Source: Phycisphaerae bacterium (GTDB taxonomy: Bacteria; Planctomycetota; Phycisphaerae; UBA1845; Fen-1342). From it: a DNA stretch of 64,000 nt. A program made the position numbers. The DNA is taken from NCBI GenBank assembly GCA_050115495.1, contig JASFQK010000017.1, positions 1-64,000 on the forward strand. The letters are read 5' to 3'. Each line of letters begins with the position of its first letter. Position 1 is the stretch's first letter. Of the stretch, positions 23,601-29,600 are shown in pieces.

Positions 23601-26600
23601 ACGGTGTTGTTGGCCCAGTACCACTGGCGGTTCGGGGAGATCCAGGCCATCTCACACATGCAGGTGATCCAGTACTTGGTACCCGCCTGCAGCGTGATGG
23701 GCGTCGCCAGGTCGGCGTGGTAGTAGAAGCTCTGGCCACTGATGTTCACGGTCGTGACACCCGCATCCGGGTAGATGAAGCTGTACAGCGCCACCGGGCG
23801 GGGATCGGTCAGGCCGTTGCCGACCGGCTTGGTGCCGGTACCGTCATCCTCCCAGAAGTGGATTTCCCAGCCAGTGACCGGCTGGTGATCCGCGTTGTTG
23901 AAGAAGCCGGACCAATCGACGGCGCCGATGGTGACGTCGCCGGTGCCGGTCAGCGTGAAGTCGTCAGCGCAGATGGCCAGGGCAGGTCCCATGAACTCCT
24001 GCGAGGCCACGCCCTGCGTGAAGTCCTCGAGGTCGGGCTGGTTCTGGTAGATCGCGTCGGTGCACGGCGGCAGCGGGGCGTCCTCACAGGTGATCACACC
24101 CATGTAGGACCACTCGCCATCCGTGCCGGGGCCGGTGCCGCAAGGCATGCCATCGGTGACCCACGGCGCGACGCGCAGGTAGTAGGTACCCGGGTTGCAG
24201 ATCTTCGAGATGGTCTGCACGGCGCAGACGGCGTCGGTCGTGACATACGGGCCAATGTAGCCGGTGAAGTCGGCGCAGTCCGCGGAGCCTTCCGGATCAA
24301 AGACACAGAAGCCCATGAACAGCGGGAACTCGGCCTCGACGTCGAAGGTCACGCTCGTACGCTCGGTGACGACGATCTTCCACCAGTCTTCGTCACGGGC
24401 GCCACCGTCGGCCCAGCAGGTACCGCAGATGGTCGCGCCGCAAGTGGTCGTCTCAAAGGCTTCCGGCGTGGCGCCGCAGCCGTTGTTGGTCGACTGGTTG
24501 CAGGGCTCGTTCTCGTTCTGACCCGTGCAGTCCACGACGCAGTTCGGGCACTCGTCGCAGGTCGCGCCAGCACCCAGCCAGACGCTCGGGGACACGCAGT
24601 CATCGGGACCGGTGATCGTGCAGGTGTAGTCCTCATGGCAGCAGGCGCCGGCCTGACCGCAAACCGGGTCGAGGTTGGCGCAGGTCGTGTAGGCGACCCA
24701 GCGGGTGCCACCGAGCTCGATGCAGGAGACCTCGTCCCAGTCGTCGACGCACTGCGGCGGATTCGTGGTGTCGAAGCAGCAGGCGCCCAGCGGCTCGGTG
24801 TTGGTGTACAGCTCGAGGGACAGACCGGAATACAGCTCCGGGCCGAACCACACGTTGTTGCAGTTGTAGTTGTCCGGGGGATCCGCCGGCTCGCCGATGC
24901 GGTTCTCGGTGAAACCGAGCTCGGCTTCCTTGTTGATGCCTACGCCGGACGATTCGACGTTCGTGACGTACCGAACCCAGAAGGTCTCGGGGACAACGAC
25001 GCTCAGGGTGGTCTCCAGGTCGAGCCAGCCAACGGACGTGTTGTTCGACCAGGTGTAGGTCCAGAGCATGTTGGCGCCGGTCGTCTGCGGGCAGGCATCC
25101 CAGAACTCGATCGTCAGATCGTAGTTCGCGCCCACATCGGCGTCGCCGTAGCTGTTCACCAACACGCAGTTGATGGTGGCGCCGCCGGGCGAGACCATCT
25201 GGATGTCGTCGGCGATGTCGAGGCCGTTTCCACCCGTACCGTGGACGTACCAGCCGTCTTCGTCCTGATTCAGATAGACCGCGTAGCCGCCGCACGCACG
25301 CGAAACGGCGGTGCCGTTGTTCGCGTTGACGGCCTGATAGTCAACGTTCGCGTTCAGATGGAGGACGTTCCTCTCGACCACGACTTTCGTGGCCGGGTCC
25401 GCCGCCATGATGCCGGCACAGCAAAGGCCGACGCCCAGGACACAAAGCAGTTTTCTCATCATCATGCCTCCTTTGTTTCTACCCGCGTTCCGAAAGAGAC
25501 GGGCCGCTTGAACCACCAGTCATCGTACGTGATGACCGGACATACGCCTCGGGAAAGTGACGATCGAAGGTGTCCCCCGGCAGCAGAATAAAACGGGCAC
25601 GAAGCGGACATTCCAAGGTTTGACCGGAAACCTGCAAGGAAGCCCCTGCCTGCCCCGAAGCTGCTATCCAGTCCATGTTCACATCGCCGCTATACATTAG
25701 TGCCGGCCCCCCGCCGCCCGCACCGGCATAGAGCCCATACCGTACTACGCGCACTATCTAAGCCGTACACTGGCTGTGATCGGTACACCCTGAGATAGCC
25801 TCTTTCTCCTTCCTCTCCTCTCCCAACACAACGTGAGTAACCAACGGAATATAACTCGCTCGGCCCGAGTGTGTCAAGCGCAAACATCAACGCCCAGCCC
25901 CAGTTGGTACGTGCCCTATCGAGGCGCAAATCGCCTCGGTGAACGAGAACTCTTACATCATGTCGGCTAACGCAGGTCGCGCCCTTAGGTCGTCCGAGAG
26001 GTTGCCCATGACACCAGTCGTGTACCCATAAACGAACGATATTTTCGGACCCAGCGGGACGCAGCTTGCGCCCCCGCGAGGGGCACGCAAGCCGCCTGCC
26101 TCGGCCGGCAGGCGGCGTCATCCCGGCTTGACGGCATCCGCCCGGCGCGCCATGCTCCCGCCGTACCTGACCCATCACCGTCCGAAGCCGGACTGCCGGA
26201 GGAAACATGTCCAGCGACGACAACGCCGACGTGACCATGTCCAGCGACGCCAGCACTCCGGAAACCCCGCCACGCCCGCCGTACTGCCTTGTCCACATTG
26301 CCGACTTCGCCGCGGGCGACCGGCTGGCGCAGCTTACGCCCGTCGATTGCGACAACTTCTCGGACGTGCTGCGGCAGGCCAGGCCCGAGGTGGCGGTGGC
26401 CCTGAAGCCGCCGCTGGGCGACGGTTCAGACTGGGAATTCCGGCTGACCTTCGACAGCATGGCCTCCTTCATGCCCGCGGGCCTGCTCGCGCAGATCCCG
26501 GCGGCGAAGACGCGCCTGGACTTCTGGCAGAAATTGCGCGAGCGACGCCAGGGCCGCATCGACGAGGCTGCGTTGACAGCGGCGATCGAGGCGGCGATCC

Positions 26601-29600
26601 AGGCCGACGGCAGTCTGGCCTGGCTGCACGCGGCGCCTTCGGCCCCTGGGGCGGCACCCGCGGCGCCCGCCGACGGCAGCATCCTCGACCTGGTTGATGC
26701 CCCGGATGAGTCCCGCCGGGTCAGCGCCGACGTCGAACGGCTGGCAGCGGACACCGAGCAGGGCTCGGCTCGCATTGGCGGCGGTGAGGCTGGTCGCCTG
26801 AACGCCTGGCAGCAACGCCTCACGCTCGAGCTGACCACGATCGCCAACGCCGTCCTCCAGCACCCTGACGTTCGCCGGATCGAGACCGCCTGGCGCGGGC
26901 TGAAGCTGCTCGTGGACCGGATCGACTTCCGGGAAGGCGTGAAGCTGTCCGTGTTATCGGCCCCGGACGACGAGTTGGCGACCCGGCTGAACGAGGGGGT
27001 GATCGAGCCCGCGTTCGCCGGCGACATTCCGACACCAGGAATGATCCTCTGCGACCGGGCGTATGAGAACACGCCGATGGACCTGGCCCTGCTGGACGAG
27101 TTGGGTCGGGCGGCGGCCAGCCTGCCAGCACCGCTGGTCTTCCCGATGTCCGTGGCGTTCTTTGGCGTGAAGAGCGCTCGGCTGTTGAAGAACCTGCCGA
27201 ATCTGTCGGGGCTGATCGACGGCTGGCAGTTCGCGAAGTGGCGTTCGCTGCGCGAGCAGCCACACGCCCGCTGGCTCGTCGGCGTCGCCGGGCGGTTCCT
27301 GCTGCGCGGGTTGCACGCCGCGACGCCGGACGCGCAGACGTTCACGTGCGCCGAGCAGGTCAGCGCCGCGTCGCAACTGGCGTGGGCCGGCGGGCACCTG
27401 GCCATGGGCGTCGCCGCAGCTCGGGCATTCGCCCGTCACGGCTGGCCGACGCGCATGTTCGGCGCTGAGGCGGGCAAGCTGGACGATTTGCCCATCGTGC
27501 CCAATCCCGCCGACGCACAGCACCCGTGGGGGCCGGGCGATATGGTGCTGCCCGACCGCCGGGTGGACGAGCTGCCGGCGATCGGCCTCAACCTGCTGCA
27601 AAGCATGCCGGGCAAGGACTTCTGCCTGCTGCTCGGGGGGATGACCGTGGCGCGGCCGATGCCGACGGCGGAGATCGGCGCGCAGCAGGCGGCGCTCGAG
27701 GTCAGCCTGTCGTACCAGCAGTTCAGCAGCGCGGTCGGAGCGTGGCTGTGCGAGCAGGTGCCGACGCTGCGCGGTCTGGACGGCGAAGAGGTGCAGCGGC
27801 GGCTGCTGTTCGGCCTGCGGGACCTGGTGGGCCTGAAGGAGGACGACGCCGAAGACGCCCTGCTCGTGGGCGTTGGGCCGGCGCCGGACGACCCCGGGCG
27901 TACGCTGGTGCAGGTGCGGATCACGCCGCCGGGGCGCATCGTCCCGGGCGGCCTGCACGTCGATTTCGGCTTTCCCTTGTCGTCGTAATCGCTGAGTTGT
28001 CCGGCTCGCGGCGAGGCTACTCGTCGGGGGCCGGAGCTTCAGCGGGTGGTTGCGGCGGAGCAACGAGCAGTTCCGCGCGCTTGGCGCGGAGCAGGCTGAC
28101 GACGTCCTGTTCAGCCGCCAGACGCGGCAGGAGCAGCCCGGCCACGAGCGACGTGATGATCGTGACCATGGCGACCAGGCCAACGATCCCACGGACGCCA
28201 GGCGACAGCCAACCGAATGGCCGATTGATCGCCTTCAACGCCGTGTCCAGCAGGCGAAACACGAGGCTGGGCCGATCCGCATCGTCGCCGGTCGCAGCCG
28301 TGCCGTCCGACGTTTCGGCCTTGGTTTCGGCGGTGACGGCTTGCTCGGGGGCAGGCGCGGGCTGAGCAGCACCGGGGGCGGGTGCGGCCGCAGGGCGTGC
28401 TGGCATCCCCGGCGTGGGCACCGGGATGGGCACGACGTGGCCACCCTGCCCATCGTCGAGACTGGGCATGCCGTCCTGGCCCGGAACGAGCTCCTCGATC
28501 TCGGCCAGGGCCGCGTCCAGCTCTTCCTTGGTCAGAACGGCCTGCGATTTGTGTTCGGCGGTATTCGTTTCCATCGCAAACTCGGCGCAGGGCTCCGCCC
28601 GGTAAATCGGCCGAACTCGGACGTGGCTTCAGTAAGCGGGCGGGCGCTGTAGGAACTTGTAGCGGCGCGCGTCGACAGAGAAGTCAAGGAACTATTAAAC
28701 TAGTGAGGCTCTGACTATCGGCGTAATCCTCAGCTTGTCGCCCCTCGGCCCGCGCCACGGCCGCCGCGGCGGGAGAAAGACATGACCCGCACTACCCCCC
28801 TGCTCGCCCTGCTGCTCCTGCTGCCCGGCGCGACGGCACAACCGGCCCCCACGACCGAGCAGCTCCTGGCCAAAGTGCCGCCGCGCACGGCGTTCGTGCT
28901 GGTCGCCCCGCGGCTGGACAACCTGGTGAGCAACCTAGCGAGCTTCGGCAAGAAGATCGGGGCGGATGAGCTGGCCGAGCTGACGCCGGCGCTCCTGCTC
29001 GAACGGGCGGGACTGCTGGAGCACGCCGAGGGTCTCGATATCGACGGTCCGCTGGTAGTCGCCCAGAGCCCCGAGTACGCCGTGCCGCTCGCGTTGTGCG
29101 TGGTGCGTGACGCCGAGGCCTGGAAGAAGGCCGTGCAGGCAGAAACGATGAACAACGGGCTGCTGCGCGTGCGGCTGTGTCATGCCGGCGGCTATGCGGC
29201 GATCGAGGAAAACGTTCTGATCCTTGGCGACGAGCCTGACGCGGTTCGCGCAGCGGTGGCCGCCGACGAGACGTTCGCCCTGCGGTTTGCGCAGGAAGCC
29301 GGGCCGCTGCTGGCCGACCACCAGTTCGTCTGCTGGGTGGACCTGCCGCCGTGGCGACCGCGAATGGAGGCCGTGCTGGCGGCGATGCGGCTGGCCATGC
29401 AGATGAGCATGGCCATGAACGCGCCGCCGGACGAGAGCATGCGTCGGGTCGTCAACGCGCTGGTCAGCGAGATAACAGGTCTGATCCGCGAGATGGACTC
29501 GCTCGCCGTGGGCATTCGGGGCGGCGCAGACGGCATCCGCCTGCACGCGATCACGCGTTTTCGCGAAGGCGGGCCGGTCGCGACGTATCTCGACAAGGCC

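What a model noticed while it worked through the whole genome (the two positions that open the first line are those of the whole stretch)
26207..27988. A complete single-copy type VI secretion system scattered over five core loci, with an extra natural TssB-TssC fused she [...]
The T6SS core is not a cluster: tssB-tssC-hcp (C1:120414-123354), tssK-L-M (C2:11123-18214), tssE-F-G-H (C46:15802-21872), tssA (C42:10347-11942) and vgrG/PAAR (C6, C10) each sit among housekeeping genes. A stand-alone gene g02206 encodes TssB and TssC fused in one 593-aa chain, besides the normal split pair, and this fusion is conserved in the family.
Evidence so far: Profile of 11 orthologs matches TssB chains at positions 3-146 (E5e-13) and TssC chains at 138-567 (E2e-50) in PDB; single open frame in 11 of 31 genomes. 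In near-closed family genomes the genes are clustered in G172 (1.04-1.08 Mb, fusion included), partly split in G088/G166 (tssK 0.4-2 Mb away) and spread over megabases in G024 and G038, so the scatter is real, not an assembly artefact. AlphaFold model of the fusion (pLDDT 83) matches T6SS sheaths best (3j9g, 5urw; E1e-22; calls 128,134).
(Added by a program. Inside this text positions count along the whole contig: contig position 1 is position 1 of the stretch shown here. "Call 12" and the like, gene names such as g00115 and contig names such as C1 are that model's own, and its searches are not shown. The text may have been shortened before it was handed on; [...] marks where a part breaks off. 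The agent that wrote the report below was given it as the finding of a first reader that could run no searches.)

Follow-up and report, generated by a model that had tools for sequence, protein, structure and literature searches.

The report
Fused sheath protein of scattered T6SS
This bacterium spreads the genes of one complete type VI secretion gun over seven places and keeps an extra one-piece copy of the gun's spring protein that probably caps or regulates the spring; such fusions are already in print, but this widespread compact form is unnamed and untested.

Summary
Real. Window 26207-27988 is one open frame (593 aa) joining a TssB part and a TssC part. The genome holds one full T6SS in four core blocks, two vgrG loci and this stand-alone gene, among unrelated genes; two near-closed relatives confirm the scatter. 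Among 72 family genomes the fusion is in 40 of 47 with a T6SS and 0 of 25 without, although unlinked. Corrections: a natural TssB-TssC fusion is published (roseobacter TssCL, PMC9515649); the family spans about nine phyla, not one family; clustered and partly split relatives carry other T6SS lineages; this scan has met the family in at least 11 other genomes. New here: this member keeps the N-terminal arm, the ClpV-binding helix and the inner domain, but that domain has lost conserved motifs and basic charge, and its C-terminal strand is confidently modelled folded back on itself, unlike the genome's normal TssC. Best reading: a minor, ClpV-recyclable sheath subunit, most likely a chain-ending ring (about 0.4); initiator ring or soluble regulator remain open. 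New variant of a known kind.

The parts
26128..26156 (+). sigma-70-type promoter of the fusion gene (-35 TTGACG, 17 nt, -10 CATGCT)
   Evidence: same spaced motif before 13 of 20 orthologous genes; its words occur in 3-21 of 2123 background upstream regions; not picked up by the consensus scan; function inferred
26198..26202 (+). ribosome-binding site GGAGG
   Evidence: sequence; first ATG supported by ortholog N-terminal lengths
26207..27988 (+). single-chain TssB-TssC sheath paralog, 593 aa (P0001)
26228..26284 (+). N-terminal arm: [ND]-V-x-[FVM] strand motif and fixed-length linker (residues 8-26)
   Evidence: V9 in 57 of 75; V9 to Y26 spacing 17 in 47 of those 57, equal to the commonest spacing of normal TssB; unstructured in the monomer model
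26273..26632 (+). TssB/VipA-like part (about residues 23-142)
   Evidence: Pfam PF05591 43-141; family profile matches TssB chains 5urw_1A, 5ojq_a at positions 9-152
26633..26674 (+). variable Ala/Pro linker joining the two halves (residues 143-156)
   Evidence: least conserved region (0.41); W139-L160 spacing 16-31 residues; pLDDT under 50
26675..26707 (+). internal copy of the TssC N-terminal ClpV-binding helix (residues 157-167)
   Evidence: [quoted passage not shown]
26708..27676 (+). TssC/VipB outer helices and middle domain (residues 168-490)
   Evidence: Pfam PF05943 208-480; fold match Z 31, rmsd 2.6 A, 380 residues to 5myu
27677..27985 (+). divergent inner Domain 1 with invariant Pro-Pro...Pro-Gly-Gly turn and C-terminal strand (residues 491-593)
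   Evidence: no PF18945 hit but same fold to residue 581; motif and charge changes; strand 585-592 paired at pLDDT about 91

Best explanation
The gene encodes a dedicated, minor accessory subunit of this genome's single T6SS: a pre-joined TssB-TssC protomer. Most likely it is a chain-ending ring. It can still hand its N-terminal arm to the sheath ring below it, but its inner domain is plugged by its own C-terminal strand and has lost the basic, tube-facing features, so no further ring docks; its exposed internal helix lets ClpV strip it and recycle the sheath. Shown: fusion, fold, kept arm and ClpV helix, changed inner domain, strict co-occurrence with the T6SS core. Inferred: joining the sheath, position at the end, ClpV binding. 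The scattered layout is an old, mostly vertically inherited T6SS broken at the known module borders (J-K-L-M, B-C-hcp, E-F-G-H, A, vgrG), each piece with its own promoter.
For: T6SS-bound: 40 of 47 family genomes with tssF hold it, 0 of 25 without tssF do, though it is unlinked; in the sister lineage it sits in the cluster, directly after clpV in G039 and G041, after the vgrG-PAAR block in G036, G043, G048; it tracks its T6SS lineage (32-35% vs 48-61% identity). Normal tssB/tssC always stay beside it, so it does not replace them. Arm kept at normal length; arm length decides contraction and subunits link to the ring nearer the baseplate (PMC5797969, PMC5813253, passages). ClpV helix invariant; ClpV binds that helix (PMC5048182, passages). 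Inner domain changed: PH[FILMY] motif 74 of 74 normal TssC against 1 of 75 fusions; RRPL-type motif 68 of 74 against 0 of 75; net charge of the last 100 residues +2.1 against -4.0. Model control: fusion C-terminal strand paired at pLDDT about 91, normal TssC tail 476-491 under 50. A second group of fusions, TssCL included, has lost Domain 1 outright, which also stops chain growth.
Against: No binding or filament was modelled or measured. The normal TssC model also follows the folded-back path of monomeric sheath crystals (3lml to residue 491, 6gkw to 488), only at low confidence, so fold-back may be the ordinary pre-assembly state; one model each; the control lacks its TssB partner. Three genomes of the scattered lineage (G050 89%, G051 94%, G070 92% complete) have the core but no fusion hit, and most studied T6SSs work without one. 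G000 has a long TssA, a class thought to cap the growing end already (PMC13584744, passages). Some genomes carry two such paralogs in tandem (L082, G328, G294), which fits layered roles as well.
Confidence: 0.4

Rival explanations
1. Initiator ring: the fusion forms the first sheath layer on TssE, around the VgrG hub rather than Hcp, like Pvc4 of Photorhabdus virulence cassettes.
For: Both arms are present in sequence; a changed inner surface would suit a non-Hcp partner; often encoded near clpV-vgrG-PAAR; position-specific sheath paralogs exist in PVC (PMC12546770, passages); the second Agrobacterium TssC is essential and does not stabilise TssB (PMC3702570, passages).
Against: A first ring must accept both arms of ring two, which a self-plugged inner domain would hinder; absence from three complete-looking systems fits badly with an essential first ring.
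Confidence: 0.25
2. Soluble regulator: a closed monomer that binds ClpV (decoy, adaptor or sensor) or chaperones sheath subunits, and never joins the polymer.
For: ClpV helix is the most conserved part; self-contained fold (pTM 0.85); relatives lie beside FHA, PP2C and kinase genes in Rhodothermales, KSB1, Nitrospirae and Marinifilum loci; Domain-1-less relatives exist.
Against: The N-terminal arm keeps a fixed length (47 of 57) and Domain 1 stays conserved (0.65), which a free decoy would not need.
Confidence: 0.15
3. Interspersed subunit: it co-polymerises at low ratio along the sheath and marks sites for ClpV or tunes contraction.
For: Full three-domain architecture, arms of normal length; altered subunits co-assemble with normal ones in Vibrio (PMC5797969, passage).
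Against: Loss of the motifs kept by nearly all polymerising TssC examined; only 23% profile identity to normal TssC.
Confidence: 0.15
4. Decaying duplicate without function.
For: Evolves faster than TssC (mean 54% against 84% identity); missing in three genomes.
Against: Intact in 37 of 40; synonymous codon changes outnumber replacements in the two closest pairs (88 to 49; 52 to 17); conserved promoter (13 of 20); lost together with the core in 25 of 25; kept across phyla.
Confidence: 0.04

Closest known systems
TssCL of roseobacters (Suria et al. 2022, PMC9515649)
   Same: Natural chain with divergent VipA and VipB domains, kept beside normal tssB and tssC; lies downstream of clpV; its last third matches the fused-family profile in one piece (positions 16-505). 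Function untested.
   Different: TssCL is about 1,550-1,680 aa with an extra near-identical TssB copy at the start, and its fused unit lacks Domain 1 and ends in an acidic tail. P0001 is 593 aa, has one VipA part and keeps Domain 1. They fall in separate tree groups; one origin is not rejected (AU p 0.097). The paper saw TssCL only in Alphaproteobacteria.
Canonical T6SS sheath protomer TssB/TssC (VipA/VipB; PDB 3j9g, 5mxn, 5urw, 5n8n)
   Same: Same fold (Z 28-31, rmsd 2.5-3.4 A), same order of parts, N-terminal arm and ClpV helix kept.
   Different: One chain; about 24% identity; ClpV helix internal; PF18945 not hit; PHF and RRPL-type motifs lost; inner domain acidic.
Second TssC, TssC40/ImpD of Agrobacterium and rhizobia (PMC3702570)
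   Same: A non-redundant sheath paralog beside the normal pair.
   Different: ImpD is not fused to a TssB part, lies right after tssC and forms its own tree group. In this family the four genomes with an ImpD-type gene lack the fusion.
Single-chain sheaths of phages, R-pyocins and eCIS, with layer-specific paralogs Pvc2/3/4 (PMC12546770)
   Same: Single chain aligning end to end (residues about 12-25 to 581, Z 15-22); several paralogs per machine.
   Different: P0001 is far closer to T6SS sheaths and carries the T6SS-specific outer helices and ClpV helix.
Split T6SS loci of Geobacter, Xanthomonas, Yersinia (Boyer et al. 2009, PMC2660368)
   Same: One system in complementary loci; breaks fall between the conserved blocks named there.
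   Different: There two loci; here four core blocks plus two vgrG loci plus the fusion, megabases apart, across about 17 genera of one family.

Membership tests
T6SS sheath (TssB/TssC fold) | VipA and VipB domains | tested here: met
   PF05591 and PF05943 over cut-off; NCBIfam equivalog cut-offs not reached
T6SS sheath (TssB/TssC fold) | three-domain sheath fold with inner Domain 1 | tested here: met
   model aligns 194-581 to VipB 61-476, Z 31
Canonical polymerising TssB/TssC | two separate chains | tested here: not met
   one open frame
Canonical polymerising TssB/TssC | conserved Domain 1 signature (PF18945, PHF, RRPL-type motif) | tested here: not met
   no PF18945 hit; 1 of 75 and 0 of 75
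Canonical polymerising TssB/TssC | N-terminal arm of fixed length | tested here: met
   register of the strand motif is my alignment by eye
Canonical polymerising TssB/TssC | ClpV-binding helix | tested here: met
   sequence only; binding not modelled
Canonical polymerising TssB/TssC | forms a contractile tube round Hcp | not testable with these tools
   needs experiment
TssCL | two VipA domains plus one VipB, about 1,600 aa | tested here: not met
   593 aa, one VipA
TssCL | extra to normal tssB and tssC | tested here: met
TssCL | common origin of the fused unit | tested here: inconclusive
   separate groups in the best trees; AU p 0.0965 on 39 of 68 rows, LG+G4
ImpD/TssC40 | unfused second TssC next to tssC, own clade | tested here: not met
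Complete T6SS-i | TssA, B, C, Hcp, E, F, G, ClpV, VgrG, K, L, M and PAAR present | tested here: met
   (ClpV named from AAA/Clp domains, position after tssG and 45-48% identity to clustered ClpV)
Complete T6SS-i | TssJ lipoprotein | tested here: inconclusive
   PF12790 not hit; lipoprotein before tssK in 22 of 30 loci with invariant Gly-Cys, TM 0.54 to a TssJ cluster model; no TssJ hit in PDB sequences
Complete T6SS-i | active firing | not testable with these tools
   RNA-run contigs cover parts of the gene but cannot show transcription

The most novel reading that the evidence does not exclude
T6SSs of about nine mostly uncultured phyla use an unrecognised structural subunit: a single-chain, self-plugged sheath ring that ends the sheath and gives ClpV its entry point, the T6SS counterpart of the layer-specific sheath paralogs of eCIS; and in this Phycisphaerae lineage the whole gun has become a dispersed, housekeeping-like cell structure.
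Probability: 0.3. Interest if true: 0.72.

Novelty: new variant of a known kind. Interest (0 to 1): 0.46.

Why it matters
What ends the T6SS sheath at its far end is not settled (PMC5813253, abstract: composition unclear). A widespread sheath paralog that keeps the outgoing arm and the ClpV helix but has a closed inner domain is a concrete candidate and is testable. Its joint loss with an unlinked core (25 of 25 genomes) shows that it works only with the T6SS. The scattered layout also means cluster-based T6SS finders will miss such systems. The interest is held down because a natural fusion is already published, the scan has reported this family many times, and unclustered genes are usual in planctomycetes.

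Tried and rejected
Frameshift or mis-assembly: rejected. Scatter as a draft-assembly artefact: rejected by flanking genes and by G015 and G071; also hcp is absent from the 1.5 kb before tssF in all 25 scattered-lineage genomes examined (2 of them cut short by contig ends) and present in 5 of 5 clustered ones. Fusion replacing the split pair: G013 showed only the fusion, but its cluster is cut by a contig start. Graded decay of one cluster: rejected. Shared operator before the scattered blocks: none found; no sigma-54 motif in 20, 14 and 21 upstream regions; tssB and tssA orthologs were not in that test. Conserved partner gene next to the fusion: none general among 142 neighbours of 40 loci (44 scanned). 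Relic of the unsplit phage sheath: not testable without a root; the internal ClpV helix and variable linker argue for re-fusion. Complex prediction (ClpV N-domain with the fusion) was not available, so ClpV binding is unmodelled. The careful tree did not finish; supports are SH-aLRT of quick trees. In the phylum search only 4 candidates per genome were scored. Reads cover only parts of the gene in three of four runs. Literature searches; only PMC9515649 described a natural fusion; none listed a paper on a T6SS in Phycisphaerae or on one split into four or more core loci; closed literature and the supplements of PMC9515649 (Table S7) were not seen.
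Full report
Observation. Window 26207-27988 (+) is one frame of 593 codons, GC like its surroundings, between a divergent secreted-protein gene and a convergent 185-aa unknown, about 8.6 kb after rpoC. Pfam finds VipA at 43-141 and VipB at 208-480, but not the inner-domain family VipB_2. An AlphaFold2 model from 75 orthologs has pLDDT 88, pTM 0.85; its nine best matches are T6SS sheath chains (Foldseek E 1e-21 to 1e-16; Z 28-31), then single-chain phage and eCIS sheaths aligned end to end. 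Named close homologs are from Phycisphaerae/Planctomycetota, which places the genome by inference.

The fusion is real. One search gave 92 hits among 8000 scored candidates, 76 of them near full length at 48-66% identity. In the 72 family genomes 40 hold it, 37 in one full frame without a stop. Contigs from two other studies cross from the TssB part into the linker without a difference. A -35/-10 promoter is kept before 13 of 20 orthologs, and synonymous changes outnumber replacements in the two closest of four pairs compared.

The scatter is real. My gene calls and Pfam scan give tssB-tssC-hcp on C1, a lipoprotein-tssK-tssL-tssM-tagF block on C2, tssE-F-G-clpV on C46, tssA on C42, vgrG...PAAR on C6 and vgrG on C10, with neighbours such as asd, truD, dnaA, aroA, prkA, queC and a phosphate transporter. 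The lipoprotein is a probable divergent TssJ (not hit by Pfam). In G015 the blocks lie 0.19 to 4.83 Mb on one contig; G071 is similar. The blocks are the conserved modules named by Boyer et al. (PMC2660368, passages), who also report systems split in two. Unclustered functional gene sets are reported for Rhodopirellula (PMC3906078, passage). No shared operator was found; fusion, tssE and tssJ each have their own conserved promoter-like words.

Three T6SS lineages, not one gradient. Genomes with a compact cluster (K-L-M-tagF-A-B-C-hcp-E-F-G-clpV, then the fusion directly or after vgrG-PAAR) have TssC 43-45%, TssK 36-37% and fusion 32-35% identical to G000, against 80-89%, 61-80% and 48-61% in the scattered lineage, while RpoC identity is the same for both (0.84). 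G023, G024, G052 and G069 have a third type with an ImpD-like second TssC and no fusion. Within the scattered lineage the fusion tree recovers several genera (G000's at 98) and its distances follow RpoC (Spearman 0.56 over 120 non-independent pairs), which fits mainly vertical descent.

Dependence on the T6SS. The same 47 of 72 genomes have sheath genes and tssF; tssK and tssA are in 45 each; the same 25 lack all of them and the fusion (14 of the 25 are at least 90% complete with at most 5% contamination). Loss recurs within genera (3 of 7 genomes of G000's genus lack everything). Kin are not independent, but joint loss of an unlinked gene is strong evidence that it has no use without the gun. 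Against essentiality: G050, G051 and G070 have the core and no fusion hit.

A wide family. A profile search of 1.84 billion representatives listed 150 best hits, of which I took about 120 near-full-length ones as fused relatives. Single-frame fusions occur in loci named Rhodothermales, KSB1, Desantisbacteria, Marinifilum, Nitrospirae, Acidobacteriota, Polyangiaceae, Kiloniellaceae, Saccharospirillum, in a Poribacteria protein and in other Planctomycetota families. In trees of the TssC part (68 rows chosen to cut redundancy) 34 fused rows with P0001 form one side of a branch at SH-aLRT 100 (group I; three of them partial or split and relabelled by me). Seven rows, with Leisingera TssCL, form group II near the ImpD-bearing systems; five others lie among normal TssC. 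One origin for I and II is not rejected (39 rows, p 0.0965). Group II members examined and TssCL stop before Domain 1.

Anatomy and mechanism. Sheath subunits link by an N-terminal TssB arm and a C-terminal TssC arm to Domain 1 of the ring nearer the baseplate (PMC5813253, passage); lengthening the N-arm by two residues blocks contraction (PMC5797969, passages); ClpV binds the TssC N-terminal helix (PMC5048182, passages). P0001 keeps an arm motif at normal spacing (47 of 57) and the ClpV helix as its most conserved stretch. Domain 1 keeps its fold but loses the PHF motif (1 of 75 against 74 of 74), the RRPL-type motif (0 of 75 against 68 of 74) and half of its Lys/Arg, and gains an invariant Pro-Pro...Pro-Gly-Gly turn. 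The model pairs the last strand with its own domain at pLDDT about 91, while the same method leaves the normal TssC tail under 50. The control is imperfect: that low-confidence tail takes a similar path. I read this as a subunit that can attach but is poor at accepting another ring, so a chain-ending ring (0.4), with initiator ring (0.25), soluble ClpV regulator (0.15) and interspersed subunit (0.15) as rivals. That it serves the T6SS is about 0.95. No complex could be modelled.

Known work. Suria et al. 2022 (PMC9515649; abstract, passages and section 12 read) describe TssCL, a 1,684-aa natural TssB-TssC fusion beside normal tssB/tssC in roseobacters, untested. Lin et al. 2013 (PMC3702570; passages and Discussion) show a second, non-redundant TssC. 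A 2026 review of accessory factors (PMC13584744; passages for four terms) showed no sheath paralog in the passages returned. Layer-specific sheath paralogs are known in PVC (PMC12546770; passages). Ten searches of the open library found no account of the compact group-I form or of a T6SS broken into four or more core loci; closed papers were not searched. This scan has already noted the family in at least 11 genomes, some with the same cap or ClpV idea; those are unchecked notes, not support. A scattered T6SS was not among earlier notes.

Verdict. Observation confirmed; novelty claim cut down. New variant of a known kind; interest 0.46.

Noticed in passing
window 23288-25465 (-) and 25848-25877 (-): Secreted protein with weak PPC, DUF7901 and dockerin hits, preceded by a near-consensus sigma-70 promoter (11 of 12).
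   Followed up: no
window 28017-28574 (-): 185-aa protein without Pfam family, convergent with the fusion and kept beside it in 5 other genomes.
   Followed up: partly
window 31429-33348 (+): Galactokinase-like GHMP kinase fused to a sugar nucleotidyltransferase in one 639-aa chain.
   Followed up: no
window 19603-22202 (+): Two tandem DUF1570 proteins followed by a CAAX protease.
   Followed up: no
G000 C6:90003-102000 and C10:147024-153283: vgrG islands with several peptidoglycan-binding-domain proteins, a transglutaminase-like protein, a PAAR protein, and a C92 peptidase followed by a HEAT-repeat protein; possible effector-immunity sets.
   Followed up: no
L082:7986-11791, L152:1483-4844, L153:4858-7929: Two divergent fused (or part-fused) sheath paralogs in tandem beside complete T6SS genes.
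   Followed up: partly
L169:26069-30970, L172:22434-27068: Leisingera TssCL ends in a long acidic tail whose last residues resemble the ClpV-binding helix; annotation starts the gene far downstream of the open frame's start.
   Followed up: partly
P0189, P0191: 1116- and 2151-aa proteins with two sheath units each.
   Followed up: partly
L067-L070, L073, L077, L081: Fused sheath genes next to FHA (some with SLT) and PP2C genes, a phospho-regulation module.
   Followed up: partly
L143:18854-21088: Saccharospirillum fused sheath gene followed by a second hcp; groups with normal TssC, perhaps an independent fusion.
   Followed up: partly
L055 (G041 C32): The compact T6SS cluster, fusion first, lies within a few kb of rpoC; in G000 the fusion is 8.6 kb from rpoC.
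   Followed up: no
L160-L165 (family f57): Another planctomycete family keeps the core clustered but the fusion alone, 58 kb to 0.6 Mb away.
   Followed up: partly
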